From a virus, in the IMG/VR virus record IMGVR_UViG_3300045988_146045, positions 1 to 45,884 of that record: a DNA stretch of 45,884 bases. One strand, written 5' to 3'. A program made the translations under genes and the position numbers. Positions 1 through 45,884 of the stretch are shown here, piece after piece (positions within the stretch are counted from its first letter, which is position 1; each line of letters opens with the position of its first letter). Under the pieces are notes generated by a model. The model made no database searches and was not told the origin of the DNA. It saw only the letters and a program-made list of their open reading frames with translations.

Positions 1-119
1 ATTTTTTTTGATTTCAACAGTACCTAATTCGCCAGTTTTGATATTTACATCCTCGATAGTGATGCTATTTTTTTCTTTACTACATCCTACAAAACCAAAA
101 CACAATAATAAAACCAATA
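1..119. repeat. 119-bp terminal direct repeat; 1-119 is identical to 45766-45884 (assembly overlap, DTR or att duplication)
   Basis: Exact 119-nt identity between the window start and end, read directly; contains the 5' coding part of the lipoprotein gene. Confidence 0.9.
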
Positions 120-141
120 AACTTTTAAATATTTTTTTCAT
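1..141 (-). CDS. Lipoprotein N-terminal fragment (MKKIFKSLLVLLLCFGFVGCSKEKNS...), truncated at the window edge and continuous with 45199..45884 if the contig is circular
   Basis: Reverse-complement translation gives a signal peptide and lipobox LLLCFGFVGC. Start codon is complement 139-141 with RBS GGGAGAG upstream. Sequence is identical to the N-terminus of ORF 45199..45882. Confidence 0.75.
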   Translation of the reverse strand, partial: MKKIFKSLLVLLLCFGFVGCSKEKNSITIEDVNIKTGELGTVEIKKN

Positions 142-646: not shown

Positions 647-668
647 TATTAATCGGTTTTTTTGTTCC
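636..668. terminator. Bidirectional rho-independent terminator (gaaaccgattaatattaatcggttttttt)
   Basis: Perfect 9-bp stem flanked by an A-run and a T-run, between convergent genes 521..646(+) and 649..1020(-). Confidence 0.7.
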
Positions 669-1020
669 CAAAACCTTTTATTATCTTATCAAGCAACAGT
701 ATATCTTCGTCCGAGAAGTCAACTATTGCTTTTACAAGATTTTTTCTTTCTTCACTCTCTCCTGACATAATTTTATCAATCTTTGAAATGATATCTAAAT
801 CAGGTTCTTCATCTTCTCCCATTATTAAATATTCTACTGTACAACAAAGAATATTAGCTATTTTTTTTAATATTTCGTAGTTTGGAGCTCTATAGCCACT
901 TTCGTATCCAGCTAAGGTACTCTTTGCCACACCAATTTGTTTAGCTAGGTCAACTTGAGAAATATTTTTATTATTTCTAACTTCTTTGATCCTTTTACCA
1001 ATTTCTTTGTTTGTGTCCAT
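649..1020 (-). CDS. CI-like phage repressor, XRE-family HTH without a peptidase S24 domain (123 aa)
   Basis: HTH motif ISQVDLAKQIGVAKSTLAGYESG; RBS GGAGGTGA; divergent from a cro-like gene with a palindromic operator in between. Confidence 0.75.
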   Translation of the reverse strand: MDTNKEIGKRIKEVRNNKNISQVDLAKQIGVAKSTLAGYESGYRAPNYEILKKIANILCCTVEYLIMGEDEEPDLDIISKIDKIMSGESEERKNLVKAIVDFSDEDILLLDKIIKGFGNKKTD

Positions 1021-13620: not shown

Positions 13621-13761
13621 ATGTATATATTTGTTTTACTAACAATAATTCTTTTAACGATAATCATTTGTGAGACAGTTGAAAAAATTTATATTTACAG
13701 AATGTATAAAAATTTATCCCCTGAGCAGATAGAGGCTTTTGTACGTAATGCCAAACGATAA
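13621..13761 (+). CDS. Small membrane protein (46 aa), approximate coordinates
   Basis: RBS TAGGAGGAAAG 7 nt before ATG; N-terminal TM helix. Confidence 0.35.
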   Translation: MYIFVLLTIILLTIIICETVEKIYIYRMYKNLSPEQIEAFVRNAKR

Positions 13762-16174
13762 CAATGAATTTAAAGTGACCCTTGAGGCTATCAAAAACGC
13801 TACGTCATGCGTTGCGATAGCTTCTTCTGTTTGTGGACTTCCTATTAAAAATTCGGGGGATAGGTGTCCTAGTTTCTTACACAGCGGGTCGAACCCTAAT
13901 TCAGTCGTCATCAACAATGATTACTGGTATTCATTTTCAGATGCTCAGGGCGGTGATGTCATTGACCTGTTGGCGCTGCACACATATGATGCTGATAGAG
14001 GTCAGGCGATAAAATTTCTTAGTGAATATACCGGCATACCATTACCTAATAGCGAGTATTCCGAAAAATGGAAAGATTACACACAAAATCTATGTAATAA
14101 AGTCGAAGCATGGCATAAAAATTTAACCGATGAACACCGTAAATATTTACATAATCGCAAAATCAACGATGAAACCATAAATAAATTAAAAATCGGATTT
14201 AATTTCGATGAAAATCGATTAATAATTCCTATGTGGAAGAACGGATATATATGTTATTACTGCGGTAGAACGATGGGTGAGGTAACAAAAACCAATCCCA
14301 AGTATAAAAAACCGTATTTAGACGGATTCAATGAAAATGATATTTTTGGATTAGATACACTAAACCGTGATAAATCGGTACTCGTTTTAGCCGAGGGAGC
14401 GTTTGATTATTTATCGTTCTATCAGGAAAACTACGCTGTATTAAGTATGGCGGGGGGAACTTTTTCAAAAAAACAAACAAAACATATATTACAGATAGCT
14501 AAAAATTTTGACAAAGTCCTATTGACGTTCGACAACGATAAATCAGGCGGACAGTTTACAGTTTCAATGGCTAAAAAATTATTCAGCTATCACATACCGT
14601 TCATTGTATCAACACCCCCATCTAAATATAAGGATATTTCAGACTACTATCAGGATGGTGGGAATTTAGCTGCTTTAATCAACGATGCAGAGCAAGGTAT
14701 TAAATCGCTTGCTAAAATGTTTAAAAATAAGGAAGATTTTGAAAACTTTATAATTAATAATCGGCGTTATATAAAACGTACAGATATTATTGATATTTTT
14801 GATGTTATAATCAGGGATCAAATTTTCCCTGATGCGTCAAAAGAGTGGATCAAGGAGGTAAAATCTATGTCATTAAAACCATCAACAGACGATGAAATAG
14901 CAAAGGTCGTCATGAAAAAACATAAATTTATACATAATCCATCATTGGGGATAATGGAATACAACGGGCGATACTGGCAGTCAATAACTGATGAACAGTG
15001 TCGTAAATATATCGGTCAGGAATACAGTTCAGTACGTACATTATCTAAATTAAACTCAGTTTTAGGGTTAATCAAGGCAGATACAGTTACGGATAAAATT
15101 CCTAACGAGAAACCGCTTATCAATTTCGTTAATGGTACATTTGAAATCGAAACTGGAAATTTACGTGAGCATAACGAAAATGATTTTTTATCATATGAAC
15201 TGCCTTATCCGTACAATCCAAATGCTCATTCAAGTGACTGGGATAAATTCATCAATTCAATTTTCGATGATCCTAAGAAGATTCAACTGCTTCAGGAATA
15301 TTCGGGGTACGCTTTATATTCAACAAACATATTACAGTCAGCACTTTACTTAGTAGGGAATGGAGCTAATGGTAAATCAGTATATCTAAACACAATACAG
15401 CGTGTATTTGGCGGTGCTTCGAATGTATCTAATGTAGAGCTTACAGCGTTCAATGATAAATTTCAGCTCATCTACCTGATGGGTAAGTTGATAAATGTTT
15501 CTAACGAAACTAAGACAGATTCCAAGGGGGCGGAAACCAATTTCAAATCGGTTGTTGCCGGAGATCCGATTCAGGCTTGCTACAAAGGCAAGGACTTTAT
15601 CCAGTTCAAGCCTCGGTGCAAATTATTCTTTGGATGTAACGAACTGCCAAAATCCCGCGATCTAACTGATGGATTTACGCGAAGAATGCTTATTTTAAAG
15701 TTTCCATTTAAATTTACAGACAACCCGGTAAATGAAAATGAACGTAGCGCAGATAGAAACATCGAAGCTAAATTACAAACACCTGAAAATCTGTCAGGTA
15801 TATTCAACTGGGTATATGAGGGATATAAAAAACTAAAACATAATGGTAAGTTTACGATTCCCAATGATCAGAAGGAACAGATGGAAGAATACAAGGAGAC
15901 AGCAAATCCGATTGTACTGTTTGTTAAGGAATTTGACTGGACCATATTAAAACACTACAGTGACAAACCACCGGTATTTGAAACAGTAAATGAAATGACT
16001 AATCAGGAATTATATGATTTATATAGCGCATGGTCAGTTAGAAACGGCTATGTTTACAAAAATAATTTACAGTCGTTTAAAAGAGAGTTTTCAAAGTGCG
16101 CTAAGGATTATAGAAATGATATAGAAAACTATTGCAGAAATGGAGTACGCGGGATTAAAAAACTAGCGTACTAA
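13739..16174 (+). CDS. DNA primase / SF3 helicase (DnaG-like CHC2 zinc finger plus TOPRIM plus D5_N / P4-type primase C-terminal NTPase)
   Basis: Zn-finger segment CPSFLHSGSNPNS, TOPRIM-like middle region, Walker A VGNGANGKS in the C-terminal third; 811 aa. Confidence 0.8.
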   Translation: MYVMPNDNNEFKVTLEAIKNATSCVAIASSVCGLPIKNSGDRCPSFLHSGSNPNSVVINNDYWYSFSDAQGGDVIDLLALHTYDADRGQAIKFLSEYTGIPLPNSEYSEKWKDYTQNLCNKVEAWHKNLTDEHRKYLHNRKINDETINKLKIGFNFDENRLIIPMWKNGYICYYCGRTMGEVTKTNPKYKKPYLDGFNENDIFGLDTLNRDKSVLVLAEGAFDYLSFYQENYAVLSMAGGTFSKKQTKHILQIAKNFDKVLLTFDNDKSGGQFTVSMAKKLFSYHIPFIVSTPPSKYKDISDYYQDGGNLAALINDAEQGIKSLAKMFKNKEDFENFIINNRRYIKRTDIIDIFDVIIRDQIFPDASKEWIKEVKSMSLKPSTDDEIAKVVMKKHKFIHNPSLGIMEYNGRYWQSITDEQCRKYIGQEYSSVRTLSKLNSVLGLIKADTVTDKIPNEKPLINFVNGTFEIETGNLREHNENDFLSYELPYPYNPNAHSSDWDKFINSIFDDPKKIQLLQEYSGYALYSTNILQSALYLVGNGANGKSVYLNTIQRVFGGASNVSNVELTAFNDKFQLIYLMGKLINVSNETKTDSKGAETNFKSVVAGDPIQACYKGKDFIQFKPRCKLFFGCNELPKSRDLTDGFTRRMLILKFPFKFTDNPVNENERSADRNIEAKLQTPENLSGIFNWVYEGYKKLKHNGKFTIPNDQKEQMEEYKETANPIVLFVKEFDWTILKHYSDKPPVFETVNEMTNQELYDLYSAWSVRNGYVYKNNLQSFKREFSKCAKDYRNDIENYCRNGVRGIKKLAY

Positions 16175-16460
16175 ATACACTTTAACCGTACTATCTAGCG
16201 TACTAAAAAAATATTTTCATAAATTTTAGTACACTAGAATATAAAAAAGTACGCTTAAAGTACACTTGGAAAAATATTAGCGTACTGAGTGAAACTATTG
16301 GTATATATAGACTTTTTATATATTAGTACACTTAGTACACTAATATATACTGTTATTAAAAAATATATATAAAACATTAAAAATACATATAATTACATAT
16401 ATATAACAACGACCCCACCCCCTAGCGTACTAAGCGTACTTTACTAATTTTAAGGAGGAA
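16160..16460. repeat. Putative replication origin: TAGCGTACTAA iterons (at least 4 copies) and AGTACAC(T) repeats, followed by an AT-rich unwinding stretch
   Basis: Direct repeats at 16166, 16196, 16281 and 16424 (plus a partial copy at 16435). AGTACAC at 16232, 16257-16275 and 16328-16340. A-T-only run around 16340-16415. Lies immediately after the primase-helicase gene. Confidence 0.55.
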
Positions 16461-16515
16461 AATATGTTTATAAGAATCGATGAAAATAATGCTAAACTAT
16501 TAAATTTATTAGGAT

Positions 16516-17178
16516 GTGATAATAATGACTAGAAAACATAAACCAAGAACTAAAGAAGCATTATTAGACAAAGCTGAATCTTTAAATATCGATGTAGACC
16601 CTGATAAACTCTATACATTAAATGATATTGCTAGAACTAAGGCAAAAATAAACGGTACTACGTCACCGATTAATCAAAATGAAACCCGTGGCGGCGAACG
16701 TTCTAATACGCCATCACTTTCCAGTATCAGTGATCCGATAAATGCTAAACTTTTAGAACACGCATTCAAATACTGGAATGTACCAATGGCTAAGAATGAT
16801 GAAGAAATAGCACAACGTATTGAATTTTATTTTAACGACTGCTACAAAAATCAATTAAAACCAACTCTGGAAGGGTGTGCACTTGCAATCGGTACAACTA
16901 CTCAAACATTGTATAATTGGAGTGAAAAAGATAGTAAATCGGAGTTTGATAGGTTTGACTTAGCAAAAAGAATTCGTCAATTATTATCTGATTTTGACGC
17001 CAATTTATTAATAAACGGTAAGATGAACCCAGTAGCGTATATTTTCAGAGCAAAAAACTACTACGGCATGAAAGATCAGACCGAAAGTATCGTTAAACAT
17101 GAAAATAACCTAGGTGAAACTAAAACAGCCGATGAACTTTTAGAGATAATTGAAGCTGATGTAATAGAAACGGATTAA
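16516..17178 (+). CDS. terS: Terminase small subunit (Terminase_2-like) with an N-terminal extension
   Basis: C-terminal half LEGCALAIGTTTQTLYNWSEKDS...NGKMNPVAYIFRAKNYYGMKDQ matches the TerS HTH-plus-oligomerisation signature. Confidence 0.6.
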   Translation: MIIMTRKHKPRTKEALLDKAESLNIDVDPDKLYTLNDIARTKAKINGTTSPINQNETRGGERSNTPSLSSISDPINAKLLEHAFKYWNVPMAKNDEEIAQRIEFYFNDCYKNQLKPTLEGCALAIGTTTQTLYNWSEKDSKSEFDRFDLAKRIRQLLSDFDANLLINGKMNPVAYIFRAKNYYGMKDQTESIVKHENNLGETKTADELLEIIEADVIETD

Positions 17179-17200
17179 TTTCCGTTTTTTTGTACCCAAA
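17171..17200 (+). terminator. Rho-independent terminator after terS (gaaacggattaatttccgttttttt)
   Basis: 7-8 bp stem followed by T7. Confidence 0.6.
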
Positions 17201-17523
17201 ATTTGACAGAAACGCATTAATAGGGAATTTCAGCTTGGTATTTATTTAGTGTGTGACTAAAACGGTTGCTAAATTCGCGTTTTTATTATTTTTTTGTTAC
17301 TGTAGGGGCTGTTTTATGCACAAAGGCATAAAATATAGTAAGAATATTAAACAACTCATATAGTGGCTAGGAATGATTTATATAAGTATATAAAGGTGTG
17401 TGTATTTGGCTGAATAACTATAATTTAGCGTATAAGCGTTGTTTGTGATAAATGGTTATATTTGTAGGGTAAATAAAAAACGCCGCTTATACGACGTATT
17501 TTTTAGTTGTTTTATTTAGCTAA

Positions 17524-17548
17524 TAAAAAAAGGCACTGTTTAGTGCCT
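17524..17548 (-). terminator. Rho-independent terminator for the minus-strand acidic-protein cassette (aggcact-gttt-agtgcct preceded by A7 on the plus strand)
   Basis: Hairpin followed by a U-run when read on the minus strand; a second candidate lies at 17475-17504. Confidence 0.55.
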
Positions 17549-17646
17549 TCTATTAGAACATAATGCAAATACTTTTATAAATGTTATAGGCGCTAGAAAT
17601 ACTATATTGAATATGATATTAAACATCACTTTAATTAACCAAAGCA

Positions 17647-17937
17647 TTAAGCCACCTCCTTGCATAGATCAACGAATTGTCTAAGACGGTCGATATCCAA
17701 TTGTTCTGTTAATTCTTCAATGATAGATTGTTTTAAATCGTTATCTATAAACATTATTTCGTCGCATTCTAATTCAAATAAATCATCTATAAGAGATTGT
17801 AGCGGGTTTAAATCATCATGGTATCTGGATGAATAATCTTCGTCCAATCCTACTAAAACCGCTAAATCTCTATCAGGTATATCAATTACTATATAATCAC
17901 TGTTATTCATACCACTAAATCTTAATAGTTCAGTCAT
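17647..17937 (-). CDS. Small highly acidic protein (96 aa; 29 D/E against 9 K/R)
   Basis: RBS GGAGGTAA; second gene of a two-gene minus-strand cassette with its own terminators; its composition resembles DNA-mimic and anti-defense proteins. Confidence 0.5.
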   Translation of the reverse strand: MTELLRFSGMNNSDYIVIDIPDRDLAVLVGLDEDYSSRYHDDLNPLQSLIDDLFELECDEIMFIDNDLKQSIIEELTEQLDIDRLRQFVDLCKEVA

Positions 17938-18159
17938 TTAAATTACCTCCGTGTCTAAACATGCAAATGTAATGGCATCATATATAAATTCCCATTCGTC
18001 AAATGTTATTAACTCCATATCTAGCAGCAAATTACTTTGACTGTTTAACGCGATTGCAACACGTTTAACCATTTTGTGGTCACGATCACCTTTGAATTTT
18101 AACAAGACCCTAAAACCTAAGTCTATATTATCAAATGCTTTTCTTTTTAATTCTTCCAT
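17938..18159 (-). CDS. Small acidic protein (73 aa)
   Basis: First gene of the minus-strand cassette; its stop abuts the downstream gene's start. Confidence 0.45.
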   Translation of the reverse strand: MEELKRKAFDNIDLGFRVLLKFKGDRDHKMVKRVAIALNSQSNLLLDMELITFDEWEFIYDAITFACLDTEVI

Positions 18160-18567
18160 CTTAATTTACCTTATACGCTATATTTAGCGCCCTTTCTAAA
18201 TTTATTATATGTAATCTATAAGCAATTCTAATTATGTATAGTTTCATATATACGCTCCTTTATATATTTAATTGTTTATGGTATACTATGTATGTAAGGG
18301 CTATATAAGCCCCTACATATTAGCGTTTGAAGTAAGCTATCAGGTTTCTACCTTCGTAAGGTTTAAGCCCTTGAGTGTTGCACCACTCTTTATATAGCTC
18401 TACTTCTTTTTTTATTGTCATTGTTTATCACCTCCTTGCTTTTTAAAATACTTACGGGTAAGTAATTAACTTACCACACTATTATTATACGTACAAACGA
18501 GTATTTTATCAACGATTAAAACGTATGTATAAGTACAATTAAAATGTGCAATAAAAACCACTTTTAT

Positions 18568-18596
18568 GCACCCCTAGGGGTGTTTTTTAGTGTATA
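18568..18596. terminator. Palindromic hairpin cacccctaggggtg plus T6 (bidirectional terminator-like)
   Basis: Perfect 14-bp palindrome followed by tttttt and preceded by an A-run. Confidence 0.5.
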
Positions 18597-18700
18597 TATA
18601 GTATATCTGATGTCCTTTTCCACCCGAAAAATAAAAAAGACTTATAAATAAGTATTGAAAATGAACGCATAAATAAGTATAATGTATTTGAGGTGATAAA

Positions 18701-18943
18701 ATGAAAACAAAACAAGCAATAAAAAAGATTCTTAAACAAGAACATATGACACAAAAAGTATTGAGTGAAAAGGTGGGTTATGCTAGACCAAGTAGTTTGA
18801 ATACTGTATTGATTTCAAATAACCCCCAAATAGAAACGTTAGTTAAAATTATGGATACGTTGGGATATGAAATTATTTTAAGACCTAAAAATGGAAGTGA
18901 TAAAGTAGCAAGATCAGTAATATTAAACAATGAGGAGGAATAG
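18701..18943 (+). CDS. Small XRE-type HTH protein (80 aa) immediately upstream of the serine recombinase
   Basis: HTH motif MTQKVLSEKVGYARPSSLNTV; RBS TGAGGTGA. Confidence 0.6.
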   Translation: MKTKQAIKKILKQEHMTQKVLSEKVGYARPSSLNTVLISNNPQIETLVKIMDTLGYEIILRPKNGSDKVARSVILNNEEE

Positions 18944-18945
18944 AT

Positions 18946-19515
18946 ATGATTTACGGTTATGCTCGTGTATCAACTAAAGAGCAAAAATTGGATAGACAAA
19001 TTGATAGTCTAACCAAGTATGTTGATGTTAAAAATATCTATAGTGATAAACTAAGCGGAAAAAATACCAATAGAGAAAATTATCAAAAACTAAAAGAAGT
19101 AGTAGCAGCTGGTGATGTAATCTATATTCATGCACTGGATAGACTTTCTAGAAATAAGAGAGATACAATAAGAGAATTCAATTATTTCAAAGAAAAAGGT
19201 GTCATTTTAAGAATTTTAAATATGCCTACGACACTAATTGAACTAGACGGGCAACAATGGGTTATTGAAATGATTAATAATATAATACTGGAGGTTTTGA
19301 GTTCTGTAGCTGAACAGGAAAGAATCACAACATTAGAGAGACAAAGAGAGGGGATTGAATCGGCTAAAAAGCGTGGTGTTAAGTTTGGTAGACCTGATGT
19401 AAAGATGAAAGTTGACGAAGTAATTAAAATGGTTAATAATGGTAGTAAGGTAACCGAAGCATGTAGAGAAGTCGGTATTGGTAAGCGTACGTATTATAAT
19501 TATGTCAGGGGTTGA
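18946..19515 (+). CDS. Small serine recombinase (resolvase/invertase family, 189 aa)
   Basis: Catalytic motif GYARVSTKEQ, SGKNTNRENYQKL, DRLSRN, a C-terminal HTH (GIGKRTYYNYV). RBS GAGGAGG. Confidence 0.85.
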   Translation: MIYGYARVSTKEQKLDRQIDSLTKYVDVKNIYSDKLSGKNTNRENYQKLKEVVAAGDVIYIHALDRLSRNKRDTIREFNYFKEKGVILRILNMPTTLIELDGQQWVIEMINNIILEVLSSVAEQERITTLERQREGIESAKKRGVKFGRPDVKMKVDEVIKMVNNGSKVTEACREVGIGKRTYYNYVRG

Positions 19516-19546
19516 TAATATTAAGAAATTAATCTCATATTATAAA

Positions 19547-19575
19547 TTGAAAAACACCAATCAATATTTTATAAT
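19547..19575 (+). promoter_or_regulatory. Consensus sigma-A promoter TTGAAA-17-TATAAT driving the lipoprotein gene
   Basis: -35 at 19547-19552 and -10 at 19570-19575 with exact 17-bp spacing. Confidence 0.65.
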
Positions 19576-19604
19576 TAGAGTAGAATAATTAGGGGAGAGA
19601 TAAA

Positions 19605-20120
19605 ATGAAAAGAATAATTAAAGGTATATTGATATTGCTATTGTGCTTTGGTTTTGTAGGATGTAGTGGTAGTGAGAAGAAAAACGAAGAAGATATTTTA
19701 TATAATAAAGTGATTAAAAAAATTGATGAAATGGATTATAGTATTGATTTTATTGATGATTCTACTTTAATTATTTGTGACAGTTCCAGTGAGTCAACGT
19801 TTTATTGGAAAAATGGGATAAAAGTAATTTATTTGAATGAACCAGCTACATATCTTGAGGATTCGTATGTAGCAAATATCAGATTTTATGATGATAGTTA
19901 TTATGATGATTTAAGCATAGAAGATTATGATCTGGATAACGAAAACATGTTGACAATATACAATCCAGTTGAAGATTATAGCAAAGGTGAAAAAAATCCT
20001 AAATTTTACAAAGATATTCCAATGTATGATTCGTTTACTGATTTTATAAAAAAAATAGGTATAAAAAACGAACAAGAATTAATTAATTTTTTGGATATGT
20101 TCTATTTAAAAAAAACATAA
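19605..20120 (+). CDS. Lipoprotein (171 aa), paralog of the int-proximal lipoprotein with an identical lipobox LLLCFGFVGCS; candidate superinfection-exclusion or lysogenic-conversion moron
   Basis: Signal peptide MKRIIKGILILLLCFGFVGCSGS; own promoter, RBS AGGGGAGAG and own terminator. Confidence 0.7.
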   Translation: MKRIIKGILILLLCFGFVGCSGSEKKNEEDILYNKVIKKIDEMDYSIDFIDDSTLIICDSSSESTFYWKNGIKVIYLNEPATYLEDSYVANIRFYDDSYYDDLSIEDYDLDNENMLTIYNPVEDYSKGEKNPKFYKDIPMYDSFTDFIKKIGIKNEQELINFLDMFYLKKT

Positions 20121-20126
20121 CTCAAT

Positions 20127-20161
20127 AAAAAGCCCCTTACTCATTAGAGTTTGGGGCTTTT
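20127..20161. terminator. Bidirectional rho-independent terminator (aaaagcccc...ggggctttt)
   Basis: 7-bp G/C stem with flanking A-run and T-run, between convergent genes. Confidence 0.65.
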
Positions 20162-20854
20162 ATTAAGAACTTTGCCATCTATTCGCAATTCCGAAGCTTT
20201 TTCATTATATAATTCCAAAGAAACCGCAATCTCTTTGTTTAATATTTTAGTATCAACAATGTCTCCTGCCTCGTGTAAATAACTACGAATTCTATTACCG
20301 TCTTCATCCACAACGCCATTTTTATAATTTGAAAATGGAATGAGAAGTTTTTTTGTAATTATCAACATTAATTTTTGAAAATCTAAGTCAGTAATTTTGC
20401 CTTTGTCATGCATCAGACGGATTTCGTCAATTCTTAATTTATTCCATTCCTCATATAACGTTTCGTATGTTTCGGTCTCCTTACTTTTATACTTGTTCTT
20501 AATGCTTTTTACGTATTCTAAACATTTTAATCGTCCTTCAGTTGTTAATCCTGTGCATATATGAACTATTTCACTCAATAATCCATCAGCTGTATCAACA
20601 AGACCAAGGTCAGAGTATTCCTCAAGTTCACCATCTGTCCATTGTGGAGCAGTGCCATTTAATCCTAATAAATATTGTGGTGGTATTCCTAAAGACTCTG
20701 CTATTGGATAAAGTATATCCATTTTTATTGTTTCGTTGTCTCTTTTGGTTATTCCATATAAGGTATTTATAGATACCCCTGACATTAAAGAAAGTTCTTT
20801 TATGGTAACTTCTTTTTCATCAAGTATCTTTTTTAAACGTGTTCCGACACCCAT
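20144..20854 (-). CDS. XRE-family HTH regulator with a ~170-aa C-terminal domain of unknown function (not peptidase S24)
   Basis: N-terminal HTH GTRLKKILDEKEVTIKELSLMSGVSINTLYGITKRD; start taken at MGVGTRL (RBS AAAGGA); divergent from the Rha gene with palindromic operators between them. Confidence 0.65.
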   Translation of the reverse strand: MGVGTRLKKILDEKEVTIKELSLMSGVSINTLYGITKRDNETIKMDILYPIAESLGIPPQYLLGLNGTAPQWTDGELEEYSDLGLVDTADGLLSEIVHICTGLTTEGRLKCLEYVKSIKNKYKSKETETYETLYEEWNKLRIDEIRLMHDKGKITDLDFQKLMLIITKKLLIPFSNYKNGVVDEDGNRIRSYLHEAGDIVDTKILNKEIAVSLELYNEKASELRIDGKVLNKSPKL

Positions 20855-20904
20855 TATTATCATCCTTTCATAATATAATTTAACCACATTATTAACGAAA
20901 AGTA

Positions 20905-20990
20905 CATATGTACTAAAAAAAATATTGACATTAGTACGTATGTACTATAAAATTAAAAATATAAATTAATACAAATGTACTAAAATGTGG
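20905..20990. promoter_or_regulatory. Operator/promoter region with two 14-bp palindromes, AGTACATATGTACT and AGTACGTATGTACT, and a TTGACA -35 box between them
   Basis: Palindromes at about 20911-20924 and 20934-20947 (coordinates as read from the sequence lines); a third half-site sits near 20976; TTGACA lies between them. Confidence 0.55.
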
Positions 20991-20992
20991 AG

Positions 20993-21127
20993 GTGAGAAA
21001 TATAACTAAAAGAACAACTACTGTAAAATCAGATGAAGATTTAGTTTTAAAAGCTAAGATATTTTGCTTAAAAACGAAGACTAATTTTAGCAGATACGTA
21101 GAGGATTTAATTAAAAAAAAGATTTAG
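20993..21127 (+). CDS. Possible ribbon-helix-helix (CopG/Arc-like) small protein with no canonical start codon; approximate coordinates
   Basis: Translation RNITKRTTTVKSDEDLVLKAKIF...NFSRYVEDLIKKKI has a beta-strand and two helices in an RHH pattern; the only in-frame start-like codon is a GTG inside the GGAGGTGA RBS. Confidence 0.3.
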   Translation: MRNITKRTTTVKSDEDLVLKAKIFCLKTKTNFSRYVEDLIKKKI

Positions 21128-21147
21128 AAAAGAAAGGAAAATAGAAA

Positions 21148-21885
21148 ATGAATAGTTTAAAGATTATCGAATTAAATGGTCAACGGACAGTTGACAGCAG
21201 AGAAGTAGCAGAAATGATTGAAGTTACACATGCTAATTTATTGAAAAAGATTAGAGTTTATGAAGATATTTTACTCAAGTCAAAATTGACTTCAGTGGAT
21301 TTCTTTATACCAAGTGAGTATCAGGACACTACTGGACGTACTTTAAAATGTTACCTATTAACTAAAATGGGATGTGAAATGGTAGCAAATAAGCTAACTG
21401 GTGAAAAGGGAGTTGTATTTACTGCTAAATATGTTGAAGCATTTAATACTATGGAATCAAATCAGTTGCAGTTACAGAATTTATCACCTGAGCTTCAATT
21501 CATGATTCAGTCTGAAATCAAATTGAAAGAGCATGACAGAAGATTAGATCAGCTTGAAGGTGATTTACCAATAACACCATCTGAGTGCAATTTAATTAGC
21601 AGAGAAGTGAAGTCGAGAATTAAGAAAGTTATTAGCGAAAACAATTTAATTGTAAACAATAAGCAAAGAAGAAAATTATTTAATGAAATCAAACATGATG
21701 CAACTATCATCGCTGGAGTAACACAATATAATTATATTTTAAAGAAAGATCTTGATAAGGTTATAGCTTATATTAATAACTGGTATCCTAGTGGAGCTAC
21801 TTTAGCTGTCATCATGGGATATGAGCAACAATCATTATTTAAAAATGAACATAAAAAAAGACATTCAACAACCAACCAAGATTAG
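21148..21885 (+). CDS. Rha-family phage regulatory protein (Phage_pRha N-domain)
   Basis: N-terminus LNGQRTVDSREVAEMIEVTHANLLKKI...KMGCEMVANKLTGEKGVVFTAKYVEAFNTME matches the Rha/pRha signature; RBS AAAGGAAA. Confidence 0.7.
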   Translation: MNSLKIIELNGQRTVDSREVAEMIEVTHANLLKKIRVYEDILLKSKLTSVDFFIPSEYQDTTGRTLKCYLLTKMGCEMVANKLTGEKGVVFTAKYVEAFNTMESNQLQLQNLSPELQFMIQSEIKLKEHDRRLDQLEGDLPITPSECNLISREVKSRIKKVISENNLIVNNKQRRKLFNEIKHDATIIAGVTQYNYILKKDLDKVIAYINNWYPSGATLAVIMGYEQQSLFKNEHKKRHSTTNQD

Positions 21886-21983
21886 TTTGAATGTCACCAT
21901 CAGGCACTTATATTATAATACATAAAAGGTAAATTGTCTACCTTTTAACAAGTGCCTCTAAGATTAAATGGAGGAACAAGAAA

Positions 21984-22166
21984 ATGGAATCAAAATTAAT
22001 TGATATTATTAAAAAAGCTAAGAAAGTATTTAAAACAGATAGTAGTCTTATGGTGGATGAAATACTAATTTTAAATAGGAAATCGAAAAGTAATACAGAG
22101 TTGGTGTCTAGTGCTTATGCACTAGGATACATACGAGGTGTTGAAAGTAATAAAAAAAAGGTATAA
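21984..22166 (+). CDS. Hypothetical small protein (60 aa)
   Basis: RBS TGGAGGAACAAG. Confidence 0.4.
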   Translation: MESKLIDIIKKAKKVFKTDSSLMVDEILILNRKSKSNTELVSSAYALGYIRGVESNKKKV

Positions 22167-22331
22167 AATTAAAGTATCCTAAAGATATCGAAAAAACTCC
22201 CAAACAAAAAAACAGACTGCAAGGGAGAGTGGTTTGGTTTGCATAGCGAATTAATGCAGTCACATATTAGAGCCATGAGCCGATGTATATTTTATACGTC
22301 GGTTTTTTATATATAAACTGGAGGAAATGTT

Positions 22332-22619
22332 ATGAAACTAAATATATTGGGAACAAAGTATGATTTAAAATATATCGATAACCCTGATGAAGACATGCAA
22401 AATAACGATGCGGATGGGTATACAGATAGCATAAATAAAAAAATAGTTATTCTTAGTAAAACACCTAACGATATAGAAAGCATACTTAGGCATGAAATTA
22501 TTCATGCATATTTAATCGAAAGTGGTATTGGATATGGCTATGCATTTCATAATGAGGACATGGTAGAATGGCTAGCGATGCAATTTCCTAAAATAGAAAA
22601 AACGATTAATAATATATAA
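22332..22619 (+). CDS. Small HExxH-motif protein (putative mini-zincin metallopeptidase, 95 aa)
   Basis: Motif LRHEIIHAYLIESG (HExxH plus downstream E/G); RBS TGGAGGAAATG. Confidence 0.35.
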   Translation: MKLNILGTKYDLKYIDNPDEDMQNNDADGYTDSINKKIVILSKTPNDIESILRHEIIHAYLIESGIGYGYAFHNEDMVEWLAMQFPKIEKTINNI

Positions 22620-22662
22620 TAAAATTAAGAGCCCTGAGCCGTAATGGAAAGGGGTTTTTATA

Positions 22663-24303
22663 TTGTATGTAGATAAAATATCAAATGCATTAAAGAAAAA
22701 AGGAAGTTCTTTTGAAATAGTAAACAGCTGTTTCGAGTTATGCAGATTAGAGACAAGTGAACTAAGCATAAGAAAAGGAAGTGAACTGGTTAAGAGAGCA
22801 GTAATTAAAAATGTTAAACAAGGTGAAGAATGGTATGATCTGTATCGAAAAGTTTTATTGTTTCGTGCACCTTACTGTTTTGAAGATTATTTAATTTATC
22901 TAGAAATTGATAGACCACCAGAGGAACGATTCTATCAACCGCGGAGGAAAGTATTAAAAGTTGTAGTTGAAGAACTTCAGGCGTTAGCTGATGATGAGCT
23001 GGATGAATTATTTGTAAGTATGCCACCACGTGTTGGGAAAACAACTATATTAATGTTGTTTATTACGTGGATCATGGGGCGAGATGGTGAGGCAAGCAAT
23101 TTATATAGTGCGTTCTCAGCTATAATTACAAGTGCTATGTATACTGGTGTGTTGGAGGTAGTGACAGACAGCTATACATATAACTGGAAAAAAGTATTTA
23201 ATAATTCAGGTATTGCTAATACTGATGCTAAAAAGGAAACCATAGATATTGATAGAAAGAAACGTTATCCAACATTAACGTGTCGTTCGTTGTATGGAAC
23301 ATTGAACGGAGCATGTGACTGTTCTGGGTATTTAATTAGTGATGACTTAATCGGTGGTATTGAAGAAGCGTTAAACAAAGACCGTTTAATGAATGCATGG
23401 TCAAAGGTAACGAACAATTTAATACCTCGTACAAAACAGTCTGCAAAGAAAATATGGATTGGTACACGCTGGAGTTTAATTGATCCGGCTGGTTTAAGGA
23501 TGGACTTCTTGCAGAATAATGAAGAAGGTAAAAAGGTAAGGTTTAAAATAATTAATCTACCAGCGCTTAATGAAAACGACGAATCTAATTTTGATTATGA
23601 TTATAATGTTGGATTTAATACAGACTACTACAAACAGTTAAGAGCACAGTTTGAAAGAAATAATGATATGGCATCATGGCAAGCTCAATACATGGGAGAG
23701 CCTATTGAGCGTGATGGAGCACTATTTACACCTGATACAATGAATTTCTATAACGGGGTAATAGCTGATGAACCAGTAAGAAATTATATGACGGTCGATG
23801 TTGCGTGGGGTGGTGGTGATTATGTTTCAGCACCAGTATGCGTAGAAACTGAAAACGGAGATTTCATACCTGATGTAGTATTTAATAATGGTGATAAAAC
23901 TATAACAAGACCATTAATTGTAGACTGTATTATCAAAAATAATGTTAAGTATGTTCAGTTTGAAGCTAATAATGGCGGAAGCGAATATGCCGAATGGATA
24001 GAAAGAGAATTAAAACAGAGAGACTATAAATGTACGATAACAAGTAAATCAGCACCAACTAATAAGCGAAAAGAAGCGCGTATATTTGAACGTGCACCTG
24101 AAATTAGAGAGTTTTACTATTTAGATAACGGGCGCAGACATAAAGAATATCAATTGTTTATGAATAATCTATATGCTTTTAAAATTGTAGGAAAAAATAA
24201 AAATGATGATGCACCAGACAGTATGGCGATGCTTTCAGAAGTAAGAGGAAGAGGAAAATACACTTCTGTAACAACCTTCAGTAGAAAAGATTTAGGAATA
24301 TAA
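22663..24303 (+). CDS. terL: Terminase large subunit (TTG start predicted)
   Basis: Walker A PPRVGKTT, an ATPase core, and a C-terminal nuclease region with conserved acidic residues; 546 aa. Confidence 0.85.
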   Translation: MYVDKISNALKKKGSSFEIVNSCFELCRLETSELSIRKGSELVKRAVIKNVKQGEEWYDLYRKVLLFRAPYCFEDYLIYLEIDRPPEERFYQPRRKVLKVVVEELQALADDELDELFVSMPPRVGKTTILMLFITWIMGRDGEASNLYSAFSAIITSAMYTGVLEVVTDSYTYNWKKVFNNSGIANTDAKKETIDIDRKKRYPTLTCRSLYGTLNGACDCSGYLISDDLIGGIEEALNKDRLMNAWSKVTNNLIPRTKQSAKKIWIGTRWSLIDPAGLRMDFLQNNEEGKKVRFKIINLPALNENDESNFDYDYNVGFNTDYYKQLRAQFERNNDMASWQAQYMGEPIERDGALFTPDTMNFYNGVIADEPVRNYMTVDVAWGGGDYVSAPVCVETENGDFIPDVVFNNGDKTITRPLIVDCIIKNNVKYVQFEANNGGSEYAEWIERELKQRDYKCTITSKSAPTNKRKEARIFERAPEIREFYYLDNGRRHKEYQLFMNNLYAFKIVGKNKNDDAPDSMAMLSEVRGRGKYTSVTTFSRKDLGI

Positions 24304-24367: not shown

Positions 24368-24517
24368 TTGAAAAAAGAAATATATTGCCCCGTTTGTGCA
24401 AAAAGGGGTAAAAAGAAACTTCTAGGAGCTGTAGAAGAAGGTTCAAAAGGAACAGTGTATCTATGGTGTAAGGAAGATAAAAAACCAATAAAGATTGAAT
24501 TAAGTAAAATTAAATAA
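24368..24517 (+). CDS. Small zinc-ribbon protein (49 aa, TTG start); approximate coordinates
   Basis: CPVC...WC pattern; RBS GGAAGTGGGG; not in the ORF track. Confidence 0.3.
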   Translation: MKKEIYCPVCAKRGKKKLLGAVEEGSKGTVYLWCKEDKKPIKIELSKIK

Positions 24518-43890: not shown

Positions 43891-45078
43891 TTATTTTTCT
43901 AACTTAATTTTTTGCATTTCATCAAACAGTTTATTTAAAATTGTGTGAGTATATACATCATCGGTAATATCCTTGGATTTATGACCTACGATTCGTTTTC
44001 TTGAAAAATCATTTACATTATATAATTTAGCAAGGGTATTAAATGTATGACGAGTATCGTATGGAGTATGTGTGAAGTTTAATTGTTCCATTAAGTTATT
44101 AAAAATATTTTTTCTGAATTCAATATACTGATTGTTACTATCATTCATAAACAGATACATATTGTTTTCATTAATTAATTCCAATATGAATGGTTTTATC
44201 AAATCATGAATAGGAATGTTCCTATTTCTTCCAGCTTCAGTTTTACTACCAGTATTTATGTATGAAATTATCTTTTCATTTCCGTCATCATTACATTTTA
44301 CATCTATATAAATATTTTCCCTTGTTAATTTAAATAATTCGATAGGACGTGTTCCGGTGAAAATGTAGATTAATACAATTTTAGATTCTCTAGTATTGTG
44401 TTTGAATAGTTTTCTTATTTCTTCAATAGTAAATGGATGATGTTTACTATCCGTTTCGTTATCTGTTTTGATTTTAAGATAGCTTGAAAAATCTTCATTA
44501 GGTTTAACGTATTTACGTATTACTGCATATTCAAAAATCTGTTTGCATATTACTTTCATGTGAGCTAAGGTACCGCTTTTTCTTCCTCGTTCTTTTAATT
44601 CATCAAGAACGAATTGCATATCATCAAATTCTATATCACATATAGGTAGTTCATGAATAGAATCAAAGTTATTAAACCAGCTACGCTTTTGACCTCTAGA
44701 TTTCAGTTTAGAAAATTCTTCTTCGTCTAAAATATCATAGATTTCCTTGAATGTTGGAATTGATTTAGAAATAGATATTGTAGTTTTTGGTTTGACAGTA
44801 TTTATGGGATTGCTTTGGAAAATATATAGTTCTAATTTATTTGATATCTGTTTATAAATATCCCCGTAACGTCTTTCCGCTTCTTTTGCGCTTAGTTTAT
44901 CATCATACCTGAGTTTAGCTATCTCAAGAGCTGTAAAAGCATCATCAGGATCGCTAAAAGCATTTAGTGGTTTTTGCTCACCGTTAAAAGACACACAAGG
45001 AAGATAAGGACAGCTACGTCTGCCTGATAAGGTTTTGACAGTACCGTAGCCATTTGGTCTACGTTTTAATCTTACCAT
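43891..45078 (-). CDS. int: Tyrosine integrase (phage integrase family)
   Basis: 395 aa; C-terminal catalytic region containing ...RHTFNT... and ...GHKS...Y. motifs; RBS GGAG; adjacent to the arm-type repeats. Confidence 0.8.
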   Translation of the reverse strand: MVRLKRRPNGYGTVKTLSGRRSCPYLPCVSFNGEQKPLNAFSDPDDAFTALEIAKLRYDDKLSAKEAERRYGDIYKQISNKLELYIFQSNPINTVKPKTTISISKSIPTFKEIYDILDEEEFSKLKSRGQKRSWFNNFDSIHELPICDIEFDDMQFVLDELKERGRKSGTLAHMKVICKQIFEYAVIRKYVKPNEDFSSYLKIKTDNETDSKHHPFTIEEIRKLFKHNTRESKIVLIYIFTGTRPIELFKLTRENIYIDVKCNDDGNEKIISYINTGSKTEAGRNRNIPIHDLIKPFILELINENNMYLFMNDSNNQYIEFRKNIFNNLMEQLNFTHTPYDTRHTFNTLAKLYNVNDFSRKRIVGHKSKDITDDVYTHTILNKLFDEMQKIKLEK

Positions 45079-45882: not shown

Positions 45883-45884
45883 TA

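What the first reader, a model, noticed from the sequence alone, without database searches (positions are those of the whole stretch)
16516..22662. TerS-like gene separated from TerL by a ~5.5 kb accessory island with its own regulators
Small and large terminase genes are normally adjacent. Here the TerS-like gene (16516..17178, with its own terminator) is followed by 460 bp of non-coding DNA. Then come an oppositely oriented acidic two-gene cassette, an HTH plus serine recombinase pair, a promoter- and terminator-insulated lipoprotein gene, an XRE regulator divergent from an RHH/Rha pair, a 60-aa protein and an HExxH protein. Only after all that does terL start, at 22663. The island looks like a cluster of morons or an integrated mini-element in the packaging region. 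Alternatively, 16516..17178 may be a remnant TerS, with the real small-subunit function supplied by the unusually long N-terminus of TerL (about 110 aa before the Walker A motif).
Basis: partly seen in the sequence, partly recalled or inferred. Interest (0 to 1): 0.6.

Follow-up and report, generated by a model that had tools for sequence, protein, structure and literature searches.

The report
Accessory-gene hotspot between terS and terL
In this temperate gut phage the two terminase genes really are 5.5 kb apart, but all 28 relatives where both genes were found share that layout, so it is an inherited swap zone for accessory genes, a kind of feature already known in phages.

Summary
An intact TerS gene (16516-17178; Pfam GP3_package above cut-off) lies 5.5 kb upstream of terL (22663), with the listed genes in between.

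- In all 28 related loci where both genes were detected, terS and terL are 2.6-8.1 kb apart. The split is ancestral to the clade (TerL identity down to 42%).
- The interval has a conserved core: a leftward small-gene cassette, an HTH protein plus a resolvase-like serine recombinase, and an HExxH protein just before terL. Two slots with variable content flank the recombinase pair.
- Only 19521-22174 is strain-specific. It holds a lipoprotein, an XRE repressor divergent from an RHH/Rha antirepressor pair, and a 60-aa protein. Two near-identical phages have an empty site there and others carry different cargo.
- This block resembles the P22 immI/sieA region in layout.
- Composition and codon usage are uniform, and the junctions have no flanking repeats.
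- TerS is under purifying selection (dN/dS about 0.1). The long TerL N-terminus is conserved in relatives that keep TerS, so the "remnant TerS" idea is rejected.

Morons between terS and terL are documented (JBD26 tab/atab). The role of the conserved recombinase is unresolved. By-product: a probable replication origin just upstream of terS.

The parts
16464..16532 (+). 22-aa leader ORF with a strong Shine-Dalgarno sequence (AAGGAGG), overlapping the terS start. It is conserved as an ORF, in a longer variant, in L008, L011 and L015.
   Evidence: Sequence read; comparison across relatives.
16516..17178 (+). terS, the terminase small subunit (P22 gp3-type). The probable true start is ATG 16525.
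   Evidence: Pfam GP3_package 3.4e-11, above the cut-off. PHROG 606. dN/dS 0.09-0.11 against L003 and L012. 33% identical to the annotated TerS of Clostridium phage Maintenon.
17166..17190 (+). Intrinsic terminator after terS.
   Evidence: Hairpin of -9.8 kcal/mol followed by T7.
17179..17532 (.). Conserved non-coding spacer: 94-98% identical in close relatives and 67-68% in L003 and L012. It contains the two terminators of the leftward operon (17480-17497 and 17528-17551, minus strand). Its function is unknown. A pac or protein-binding role is possible but untested.
   Evidence: There is no convincing RNA covariation (covariation term -1.19; 3 of 83 pairs compensatory).
17540..18247 (-). Variable slot 1: a leftward-transcribed cassette of small proteins. 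It comprises a 41-aa ORF (17540-17665), acid96 (17647-17937, pI 4.05), acid73 (17938-18159, pI 4.81) and a 28-aa ORF (18161-18247).
   Evidence: Content differs between relatives, with breakpoints at 17532, 17667 or 17948 on one side and 18142 or 18258 on the other. No Pfam, PHROG or PADLOC match.
18258..18700 (.). Conserved control region. It holds the leader for the leftward cassette, a 33-aa minus-strand ORF (18313-18414), a leftward promoter-like site (18512-18484), a hairpin (18568-18583), the rightward promoter-like site for HTH80-SerRec (18655-18683), and recurring TAAGTA motifs.
18701..18943 (+). HTH80, an XRE-type HTH protein co-transcribed with the recombinase. Part of the conserved core.
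   Evidence: HTH_3 2.6e-5; PHROG 8522 8.6e-10. 71-100% identical in 9 relatives. dN/dS 0.04-0.13.
18946..19515 (+). SerRec, a small serine recombinase of the resolvase type (YARVS and DRLSR motifs). Part of the conserved core.
   Evidence: Resolvase 1.5e-30 plus HTH_7. Closest solved structures: Sin 6e-27, Tn3 6e-26, γδ 4e-23, Gin only 3e-13. dN/dS 0.07. Homologues at 31-36% identity occupy the same position in the lineage with TerL at 56%.
19521..22174 (.). Variable slot 2: a strain-specific 2.65-kb moron block, absent from L010 and L016.
   Evidence: blastn breakpoints at 19520 and 22175. Junction sequences show no flanking repeats. Relatives carry alternative cargo.
19605..20120 (+). Lipo171, a lipoprotein and candidate superinfection-exclusion or surface moron. 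It has its own promoter-like site at 19547-19575.
   Evidence: Signal peptide and lipobox are read directly from the sequence. The promoter-like site scores 11 of 12. The signal-peptide-coding 63 nt are shared with a second lipoprotein gene next to int.
20144..20887 (-). XRE247, an XRE-family repressor-like protein transcribed divergently from RHH46-Rha245.
   Evidence: HTH_26 5.3e-8; HTH_19 2.2e-7; PHROG 8.
20901..20946 (.). Two 14-bp palindromes in the divergent promoter region: AGTACATATGTACT (20901-20914) and AGTACGTATGTACT (20933-20946). They are candidate operators, and the second lies within the TTGACA-17-TAAAAT promoter-like site at 20925-20953.
20987..21127 (+). RHH46, a probable ribbon-helix-helix protein in the position that Arc occupies in P22.
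   Evidence: The evidence is weak: DUF6364 0.023 and PDB 2kel E 0.16. The allele at the same position in L007 matches Omega_Repress 2.7e-5 and RHH_10.
21148..21885 (+). Rha245, a Rha/ORF6C antirepressor-type protein.
   Evidence: Phage_pRha 2.5e-23; ORF6C 3.7e-14; PHROG 373 2.6e-58.
21984..22166 (+). p60, a basic 60-aa protein of unknown function. It travels with the antirepressor module.
   Evidence: 88-100% identical in L007, L008, L013 and L014; absent from L010 and L016.
22175..22331 (+). Conserved leader before HExxH95-terL, with a strong hairpin followed by a T-run (22277-22305, -15.3 kcal/mol).
   Evidence: Conserved in L010, L016, L009 and L011.
22332..22619 (+). HExxH95, a minimal zincin-like protein immediately upstream of terL. 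Part of the core in many relatives, including the 56% lineage, but missing in L003, L007, L012 and L015.
   Evidence: PHROG 1233 9.8e-18. Invariant H54, E55, H58, E63 and E75. AlphaFold2 pLDDT 91.6. Only weak fold matches, to IrrE/PprI, selecase, Wss1 and CapP, with best E 0.09.
22663..24303 (+). terL, the terminase large subunit.
   Evidence: PHROG 38 8e-51; T7-type RNaseH-like nuclease domain 2.3e-7. 42% identical to Maintenon TerL.

Best explanation
The window is a complete, circularly assembled temperate siphovirus-type genome of about 45.8 kb. It has a tyrosine integrase and a CI/Cro/Ant switch.

In its whole clade, terS sits at the end of the replication module and has its own terminator. 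terL heads the structural operon. The 2.6-8 kb between them is an inherited plasticity zone. It is not a recent insertion.

The zone has a conserved backbone:
- a leftward promoter and leader that drive a swappable cassette of small proteins;
- an HTH protein plus a resolvase-type serine recombinase operon;
- often a small HExxH zincin-like gene abutting terL.

Two slots on either side of the HTH-recombinase pair take different cargo in different phages. In this phage the second slot holds a 2.65-kb moron block. Its parts are a lipoprotein with its own promoter (inferred: superinfection exclusion or surface modification) and a secondary-immunity-like switch. In that switch an XRE repressor is transcribed divergently from an RHH protein plus a Rha/ORF6C antirepressor, with two 14-bp palindromic operators in the shared promoter region. 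In layout and logic this matches the P22 immI/sieA region.

Shown: the gene identities, the conservation of the split, the variable content, the empty site in close relatives, the uniform composition, and purifying selection on TerS, HTH80 and SerRec.

Inferred: expression from the prophage, the exclusion role of the lipoprotein, the repressor/antirepressor logic, and exchange of cargo by ordinary recombination at gene boundaries.
For: - Split conserved: 28 of 28 loci with both genes have gaps of 2.6-8.1 kb. Clostridium phage Maintenon has an annotated terS 2.65 kb from terL.
- Backbone conserved: HTH80 and SerRec are 71-100% identical in 9 close relatives. SerRec at 31-36% and HExxH at 34-35% identity occupy the same positions in the 56% TerL lineage.
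- Variable cargo with an empty site. Cargo types are allelic lipoprotein-XRE-RHH-antirepressor modules (L007, L008, L003), a dCTP-deaminase-like protein (L009, L011), a SocA/PemK-like pair (L003), and nothing (L010, L016, L015).
- Uniform composition.
- Purifying selection.
- Temperate context, with its own integrase and primary immunity region. Circular assembly.
- Precedents: morons, including a minus-strand self-promoted defence gene, lie between terS and terL in JBD26 (PMC10884400). The P22 immI plus sieA region sits in a variable region inside the late operon and is absent from phage L (PMC8022706).
Against: - No function was tested.
- The lipoprotein, both acidic proteins and p60 match no family.
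- The RHH assignment for RHH46 rests on weak scores.
- Promoter-like sites are not enriched over shuffled sequence as a class.
- The strictly conserved serine recombinase in the middle of the zone is not explained by a simple 'moron hotspot' picture.
- Relatives were found through TerL similarity, so phages with a related TerS adjacent to an unrelated TerL would have been missed.
- In 12 loci TerS was not detected. In most of them too little upstream DNA is held. In L006 and L002, 9-10 kb upstream held no hit.
Confidence: 0.75

Rival explanations
1. Integrated mini-element. The island is a small mobile element, mobilised by its own serine recombinase, that inserted into a formerly contiguous terS-terL operon.
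For: A recombinase gene with an adjacent HTH gene lies inside the interval. Several variable-region breakpoints fall within a few bp of the recombinase stop codon, at 19519-19521.
Against: - The recombinase lies in the conserved backbone and not in the variable block. The cargo changes while the recombinase stays.
- There are no direct or inverted repeats at the junctions of the 2.65-kb block.
- Composition is uniform.
- The split exists in all relatives down to 42% TerL identity.
- A 189-aa resolvase-type enzyme is not an integrase-type large serine recombinase.
- Breakpoints at gene ends are what selection on viable recombinants would produce anyway.
Confidence: 0.07
2. Remnant TerS. 16516-17178 is a decaying gene, and small-subunit function is supplied by the long N-terminus of TerL.
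For: The Walker A motif is at residue 125, so the TerL N-terminus is long. terS is physically and transcriptionally separate from terL.
Against: - TerS dN/dS is 0.09-0.11 at dS of about 1.3.
- There is a full-length GP3_package match above the cut-off, both here and in L017.
- TerS is 99-100% identical in close relatives.
- The TerL N-terminus is conserved across the clade in phages that all retain TerS.
- The PHROG 38 profile itself has about 275 positions before the region that aligns.
Confidence: 0.03
3. Invertase switch. The serine recombinase inverts the adjacent oppositely oriented acidic cassette, or another segment such as the tail-fibre genes, as an on/off or host-range switch in the manner of Gin, Cin or Hin.
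For: PHROG 125 is labelled 'DNA invertase'. The minus-strand cassette lies directly upstream of the recombinase operon. A 26-nt inverted repeat, 81% complementary, brackets it at 17383-17408 and 18245-18270.
Against: - The right arm is simply the leader and Shine-Dalgarno sequence of the first cargo gene, and the break in homology falls at that boundary.
- Substitutions in the left arm in relatives do not preserve complementarity.
- The cassette has the same orientation in all 7 relatives that carry it.
- The inverted strand holds no alternative genes.
- There are no long inverted repeats in the tail region.
- The protein is closer to the Sin, Tn3 and γδ resolvases than to Gin.
Confidence: 0.05
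4. Resolution or cyclisation module (compatible with the best explanation). The conserved HTH-resolvase pair, kept next to terS and hence near the likely pac site, acts on a site that falls within the terminal redundancy of headful-packaged DNA. It would circularise injected genomes or resolve multimers, as Cre/lox does for P1.
For: - SerRec is under strong purifying selection, and its position between terS and terL is conserved in two lineages about 56% apart in TerL.
- It is a resolvase type, not an invertase type.
- The phage already has a tyrosine integrase, so the enzyme has some other job.
- The TerS and TerL types suggest headful packaging. This is an inference from the families, not a test.
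- The P1 Cre/lox cyclisation role is taken from my own knowledge and was not checked here.
Against: - No res-like site was identified. Only TAAGTA motifs recur upstream, and the clearest palindrome is missing in L003 and L012.
- Classical resolvases need supercoiled substrates (own knowledge).
- Several clade members (Maintenon, L005, L033, L034) lack the recombinase.
- The pac site and the packaging direction are unknown.
Confidence: 0.12

Closest known systems
[quoted passage not shown]
   Same: Non-essential accessory genes lie between terS and terL. One is on the minus strand with its own promoter, placed right after terS so that it can be expressed from the prophage. The locus is present or absent among related phages.
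   Different: The interval here is much larger (5.5 kb, about 10-13 genes). It has a conserved backbone that includes a serine recombinase, and two separate variable slots. No homology to Tab or anti-Tab was found, and no defence function has been shown.
P22 immI secondary immunity region with sieA (mnt divergent from arc-ant; PMC8022706)
   Same: A repressor gene is transcribed divergently from a small RHH gene followed by an antirepressor gene, with operators in the shared promoter region. A candidate exclusion or surface protein gene sits next to it. The region lies inside the late or morphogenesis part of the genome, is highly variable among relatives, and is absent from a close relative (phage L there; L010 and L016 here).
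   Different: The divergent repressor is XRE-type, not RHH-type like Mnt. The antirepressor belongs to the Rha/ORF6C family, not the P22 Ant family. The neighbouring gene encodes a lipoprotein, whereas SieA is an inner-membrane protein. The location is between terS and terL, not between genes 16 and 9. No sequence homology to the P22 proteins was shown.
Small serine recombinases of the Sin / Tn3 / γδ resolvase group
   Same: A full-length catalytic domain with the Ser nucleophile and DRLSR motifs, plus a C-terminal HTH. The best solved matches are Sin (6e-27), Tn3 (6e-26) and γδ (4e-23).
   Different: It is encoded in a phage packaging region and co-transcribed with a small XRE-type HTH gene. 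No res site, transposon or plasmid context was found, and its substrate is unknown.
Clostridium phage Maintenon (ON453900), the closest cultured relative
   Same: TerL is 42% and TerS 33% identical. terS lies 2.65 kb upstream of terL, with small ORFs in between, some of them leftward. The portal and head gene order is the same.
   Different: Its interval holds two tRNA genes and small hypothetical genes. It has no serine recombinase, no HExxH homologue and no immI-like module.

Membership tests
Terminase small subunit (P22 gp3-type, Pfam PF16677 / PHROG 606) | Profile match above the curated threshold over the whole domain | tested here: met
   43.7 bits against a cut-off of 29.4, covering profile positions 8-104 of 105. 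PHROG 606 at 1.5e-8. The L017 orthologue scores 56.6 bits.
Terminase small subunit (P22 gp3-type, Pfam PF16677 / PHROG 606) | Gene maintained by selection, i.e. not a pseudogene | tested here: met
   Intact ORF. dN/dS 0.09-0.11 against L003 and L012. 99-100% identical in 7 close relatives.
Terminase small subunit (P22 gp3-type, Pfam PF16677 / PHROG 606) | Adjacency to terL (typical of the family but not defining) | tested here: not met
   A 5.5-kb gap here and 2.6-8.1 kb in 28 relatives. More distant TerL relatives such as phiCD119 have ter1 and ter2 under one match, i.e. adjacent.
Terminase small subunit (P22 gp3-type, Pfam PF16677 / PHROG 606) | Binds pac DNA and stimulates TerL | not testable with these tools
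   No close solved structure by sequence. The pac site was not identified.
Moron / accessory hotspot in a phage genome | Present in one genome and cleanly absent between the same flanks in a close relative | tested here: met
   19521-22174 is absent from L010 and L016, which are 96-98% identical in the flanking DNA. Other cargo sits at the same site in L009, L011, L007, L008 and L003.
Moron / accessory hotspot in a phage genome | Own promoter and terminator, allowing expression independent of the surrounding operon | tested here: inconclusive
   Promoter-like sites scoring 11 of 12 lie before Lipo171, HTH80, RHH46 and the leftward cassette, and terminators are enriched (9 against 2.2). Promoter-like sites as a class are not above shuffled sequence. 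There are no expression data.
Moron / accessory hotspot in a phage genome | Deviant nucleotide composition (frequent but not obligatory) | tested here: not met
   GC3 is 0.231-0.240 against 0.252-0.256. Codon distance is 0.140 against a null of 0.124±0.021.
P22 immI-like secondary immunity module | Antirepressor-family gene | tested here: met
   Phage_pRha 2.5e-23 plus ORF6C 3.7e-14; PHROG 373 'anti-repressor' 2.6e-58. This is a family assignment only. Antirepressor activity was not tested.
P22 immI-like secondary immunity module | Small RHH regulator immediately upstream in the same operon | tested here: inconclusive
   RHH46 gives DUF6364 at 0.023 and PDB 2kel at 0.16. The L007 allele gives Omega_Repress 2.7e-5 and RHH_10 0.007, both below the Pfam cut-offs.
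P22 immI-like secondary immunity module | Divergently transcribed repressor with operators in the shared promoter region | tested here: met
   The XRE247 gene (minus strand) ends 100 bp from RHH46. Two 14-bp palindromes lie at 20901-20914 and 20933-20946, overlapping a TTGACA-17-TAAAAT site. The repressor family (XRE) differs from Mnt (RHH).
P22 immI-like secondary immunity module | Antirepressor inactivates the primary (CI-type) repressor | not testable with these tools
   Needs genetics or biochemistry.
Small serine recombinase (resolvase/invertase) | Catalytic domain with the Ser nucleophile, plus a C-terminal HTH | tested here: met
   PF00239 at 1.5e-30 over positions 1-144 of 145. YARVS(9) and DRLSR motifs are visible in the sequence. 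HTH_7 scores 23.3 bits against a cut-off of 23.8, which is borderline. Sin, Tn3 and γδ are the best PDB matches.
Small serine recombinase (resolvase/invertase) | Cognate recombination sites (res, or inverted crossover sites) nearby | tested here: inconclusive
   Only short TAAGTA motifs and one palindrome that is not conserved lie upstream. Inverted repeat I2 is explained as leader and Shine-Dalgarno sequence.
Small serine recombinase (resolvase/invertase) | An invertible segment seen in both orientations among relatives (invertase subclass) | tested here: not met
   The cassette has the same orientation in all relatives. There are no long inverted repeats elsewhere.
ImmA/IrrE-type (COG2856) metallopeptidase, considered for HExxH95 | Profile or fold match to the family | tested here: not met
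   No Pfam Peptidase_M78 hit; SprT-like scores 0.0096, below the cut-off. The best Foldseek match to PprI/IrrE has E 0.09 and TM 0.46. I therefore call it only a 'minimal zincin-like' protein.

The most novel reading that the evidence does not exclude
The HTH plus resolvase-type serine recombinase pair, conserved beside terS in two deep branches of this clade, may be a functional part of genome processing. One option is a Cre/lox-like module whose site lies in the terminal redundancy next to pac and circularises or resolves headful-packaged genomes. Another is a cassette-capture recombinase that creates the two variable slots flanking it. Either would be a new role for a small serine recombinase in a tailed phage.
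Probability: 0.12. Interest if true: 0.65.

Novelty: new member of a known kind. Interest (0 to 1): 0.3.

Why it matters
The result corrects a plausible misreading. In this gut-phage clade a split terS/terL pair is the normal, inherited layout and does not mark a recent insertion or a dead gene. Annotation pipelines that expect adjacency would miss TerS here.

It also defines a compact, well-bounded hotspot in phages that probably infect Erysipelotrichales-type gut Firmicutes. This host call is inferred from the Maintenon host and the label on the L003 MAG. Different relatives carry exclusion-type lipoproteins, secondary-immunity switches, a toxin-antitoxin-like pair and a dCTP-deaminase-like gene at this site. 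That makes it a practical place to mine accessory, defence and counter-defence genes.

The conserved recombinase is a small open question. Nothing else here departs from known phage biology.

Tried and rejected
1. Invertible segment bounded by inverted repeat I2 (17383-17408 / 18245-18270). Rejected: the arm is leader and Shine-Dalgarno sequence, the cassette has one orientation in every relative, and substitutions do not preserve complementarity.

2. The AGTAC[AG]C array upstream of terS as a pac or TerS-binding site. Rejected: phages with TerS 99-100% identical carry completely different repeats at the same positions.

3. A link between that array and the AGTACA palindromes of the XRE/RHH promoter, i.e. 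island regulators controlling terS. Rejected: L016 and L009 have the same array but lack the XRE/RHH module.

4. Foreign composition of the island. Not found.

5. att-like or direct repeats at the junctions of the 2.65-kb block. None.

6. A structured RNA, tRNA or Rfam family in the non-coding stretches. Zero Rfam hits at gathering threshold, zero tRNAs, and no covariation in 17179-17532.

7. Known defence systems. PADLOC gave only weak HTH-level hits.

8. Near-identical DNA in the GenBank phage collection. None.

9. Sequence matches of TerS and TerL to solved structures. None.

10. HExxH95 as an ImmA/IrrE or SprT family member. Only sub-threshold resemblance.

11. Literature searches for explicit statements on non-adjacent terS and terL mostly returned irrelevant hits. 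The one useful result was the JBD26 paper.

Full report
**1. What is there**

The window is a complete, circularly assembled phage genome. Bases 1-119 repeat at 45766-45884.

It is a temperate phage. It has a tyrosine integrase (43891-45078, minus strand; PHROG 1, 2.4e-36). At the left end are a CI-like repressor (649-1020, minus strand), a Cro-like protein (1145-1381) and an Ant-type antirepressor (1428-2336). A recombination and replication module follows and ends in a D5/Toprim primase-helicase (13739-16174). After the interval studied here come an SPP1-type portal, head and tail genes, and a lysin.

**2. Gene identities**

- 16516-17178 is a bona fide TerS. It matches Pfam GP3_package with 43.7 bits against a cut-off of 29.4, and PHROG 606.
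- 18946-19515 is a small serine recombinase (Resolvase 1.5e-30 plus HTH_7). It is co-transcribed with an 80-aa XRE-type HTH protein. Among solved structures it is closest to Sin, Tn3 and γδ resolvases (6e-27 to 4e-23) and well behind that to Gin (3e-13).
- 20144-20887 (minus strand) is an XRE-family protein.
- 21148-21885 is a Rha/ORF6C antirepressor-type protein (PHROG 373, 2.6e-58).
- 20987-21127 looks like a ribbon-helix-helix protein, on weak scores only. The allele at the same position in L007 gives Omega_Repress at 2.7e-5.
- The two minus-strand proteins are acidic, with pI 4.05 and 4.81. They match nothing.
- Lipo171 has a signal peptide and a lipobox.
- HExxH95 belongs to PHROG 1233. 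It has invariant H54, E55, H58, E63 and E75 and folds confidently (pLDDT 91.6). It gives only weak fold matches to small zincins such as IrrE/PprI, selecase, Wss1 and CapP, with best E 0.09.
- terL (22663-24303) is clear (PHROG 38, 8e-51). Its Walker A motif is at residue 125.

**3. Is the split unusual for this phage?**

No. I collected 40 loci through TerL similarity: 4 from GTDB genomes, 34 from IMG/VR, plus Clostridium phage Maintenon and Eggerthella phage EL753P1.

In every one of the 28 loci where both genes were detectable, terS and terL are 2.6-8.1 kb apart. This includes the cultured phage Maintenon, where an annotated terS lies 2.65 kb upstream of terL.

The more distant TerL relative phiCD119 (about 30% identity) has adjacent ter1 and ter2. 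The split is therefore a derived feature of this clade, but an old one.

**4. Anatomy of the interval**

Comparison with close relatives (TerL 88-100%) gives sharp mosaic boundaries.

Conserved in essentially all of them:
- terS;
- a 350-bp non-coding spacer (17179-17532);
- a control region (18258-18700);
- HTH80 and SerRec;
- a 155-nt leader (22175-22331);
- HExxH95, which is missing in L003, L007, L012 and L015;
- terL.

Variable:
- Slot 1 is the leftward small-gene cassette (about 17540-18257). Its right-hand breakpoint falls exactly at the Shine-Dalgarno sequence of the first cargo gene, so a conserved leader precedes variable genes.
- Slot 2 begins at the SerRec stop codon. The window has 2,654 bp there (19521-22174). 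L010 and L016 have 26 bp. L015 has SerRec almost abutting terL. L009 and L011 carry a dCTP-deaminase-like gene plus two small genes. L003 carries a SocA_Panacea/PemK-like pair, a larger lipoprotein and a Rha protein. L007 and L008 carry allelic versions of the same module as the window: a lipoprotein with the same signal peptide, a minus-strand XRE gene, an RHH gene, an AntA or Bro-N antirepressor, and p60.

The lineage with TerL at 56% identity (for example L017) keeps the same order. That order is primase-helicase, TerS, four leftward small genes, an HTH protein, a Bro-N protein, a resolvase, a membrane protein, an HExxH protein, then TerL.

**5.

- Composition: GC is 0.295 for the interval against 0.327 for the genome. 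GC3 is 0.235 against about 0.254. The codon-usage distance of the insert to the rest is 0.140, within the null of 0.124±0.021 for random gene sets of the same size.
- No direct or inverted repeats flank the 2.65-kb block.
- TerS has dN/dS of 0.107 and 0.092 against L003 and L012, with dS about 1.3. SerRec gives 0.07, HTH80 0.04-0.13, and TerL and portal 0.058.
- TerL residues 1-110 are 35-85% identical across the clade and carry a conserved motif (…YLLYLEINRxPEERFYQPRRKVLK…). All of these phages retain TerS.

The 'integrated mini-element' and 'remnant TerS' readings therefore fail. 'Cluster of morons' holds only for slot 2, and probably for slot 1.

**6. How it most likely works**

terS ends the early and replication module and has its own terminator (-9.8 kcal/mol plus a T-run). 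The structural operon starts at HExxH95 and terL, after a conserved leader with a strong hairpin (22277-22305, -15.3 kcal/mol). The space between them is tolerated as a landing zone for self-contained transcription units.

In this phage the units are as follows.
- The first is a leftward operon of small acidic proteins, running from a promoter-like site at 18512-18484 to two terminators. It occupies the same position and orientation, relative to terS, as the prophage-expressed defence gene tab of JBD26 (PMC10884400). Its function here is unknown.
- The second is the HTH80-SerRec operon.
- The third is a lipoprotein gene with its own promoter-like site. I infer an exclusion or surface function.
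- The fourth is the switch in which XRE247 is divergent from RHH46-Rha245. Two 14-bp palindromes (AGTACATATGTACT and AGTACGTATGTACT) lie in the shared promoter region.

The last two units together mirror the P22 immI plus sieA region. [quoted passage not shown]

The gene identities and the comparative pattern are shown. Expression timing and protein functions are inferred.

**7. The unresolved part**

The role of the conserved resolvase-type recombinase is open.
- It is not the integrase.
- I found no invertible segment. Inverted repeat I2 is explained away, orientation is constant across relatives, and there are no long inverted repeats in the tail genes.
- I found no clear res site.

A Cre/lox-like cyclisation or resolution role near pac, or a role in cassette turnover, remains possible but unsupported.

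**8. By-product: a probable replication origin upstream of terS**

Eleven of the window's 20 AGTAC[AG]C heptamers lie in 16144-16440. Their spacing follows roughly helical-turn multiples, and they flank an AT-rich stretch.

In relatives the same positions carry different repeats: TTATGAC/CGTCATA in L007 and L010, and a third set in L008 and L011. TerS stays 99-100% identical in all of them.

The primase-helicase is identical over its first ~700 residues in all these phages. It differs only in its last ~85 residues, in three types that track the repeat type.

This is the signature of an origin-specificity module: a C-terminal DNA-binding domain plus cognate iterons, as in P4 α (P4 comparison from my own knowledge). 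Physical linkage within one mosaic block cannot be separated from functional co-variation with these data.

**9. Verdict**

The feature is a lineage-conserved accessory-gene hotspot between terS and terL, carrying an immI-like moron block. It is a new member of a known kind. The conserved small serine recombinase is a modest open question.

Noticed in passing
window 15920-16440 (the 3' end of the primase-helicase gene plus the intergenic array): A probable replication origin. Eleven of the window's 20 AGTAC[AG]C repeats cluster here around an AT-rich stretch. Relatives have different repeats at the same positions. The repeat type tracks three variants of the last ~85 residues of an otherwise identical primase-helicase, and does not track TerS. 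This looks like an origin-specificity swap module.
   Followed up: yes
window 1-119 and 45766-45884: An exact 119-bp terminal direct repeat. The window is a circularly closed assembly of a phage genome of about 45,765 bp.
   Followed up: partly
window 45199-45884 joined to 120-141 (minus strand), compared with 19605-19667: A second lipoprotein gene (235 aa) lies next to the integrase. It shares only the 21-aa signal peptide and lipobox with Lipo171 (63 nt, 86% identical, in inverted orientation). The mature parts are unrelated. L007 and L008 also keep this signal peptide on different mature domains, which suggests recombination within the signal-peptide-coding region.
   Followed up: partly
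window 16464-16532: A 22-aa ORF with a strong Shine-Dalgarno sequence overlaps the terS start. It is conserved as an ORF, in a longer variant, in L008, L011 and L015. It may act as a translationally coupled leader for terS, whose real start is probably ATG 16525.
   Followed up: partly
window 17179-17532: The non-coding spacer after terS is conserved about as well as the neighbouring genes (67-68% identity to L003 and L012). It shows no RNA covariation and no credible ORF. Its function is unknown. A pac site or a recombinase or regulator binding region is possible.
   Followed up: partly
window 20901-20946 compared with 16144-16440: The XRE/RHH operator palindromes use the same AGTAC[AG] half-site as the origin-like array. 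L016 and L009 have the array without the XRE/RHH module, so the resemblance appears coincidental.
   Followed up: yes
window 24368-24517: A 49-aa ORF with a CxxC motif lies between terL and the portal gene. It is 85-98% identical in all close relatives and has no family match.
   Followed up: no
L009 8065-8673; L003 5908-6767: Alternative cargo at the same slot in relatives: a dCTP-deaminase-like protein (DCD, 3.8e-30) in L009, and a SocA_Panacea (2.4e-15) plus PemK-like (3.9e-4, below the cut-off) pair in L003. These fit a defence or toxin-antitoxin hotspot.
   Followed up: partly
L008 9669-9954: The HExxH95 homologue in L008 is split over two reading frames (100% identical in both pieces). 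This is either a frameshift or a sequencing error.
   Followed up: no
window 18430-18690: A recurring TAAGTA / TACTTA motif (about 6 copies, several conserved in L003 and L012) lies across the divergent promoter region between the leftward cassette and HTH80-SerRec. These are candidate binding sites for HTH80 or the recombinase.
   Followed up: partly
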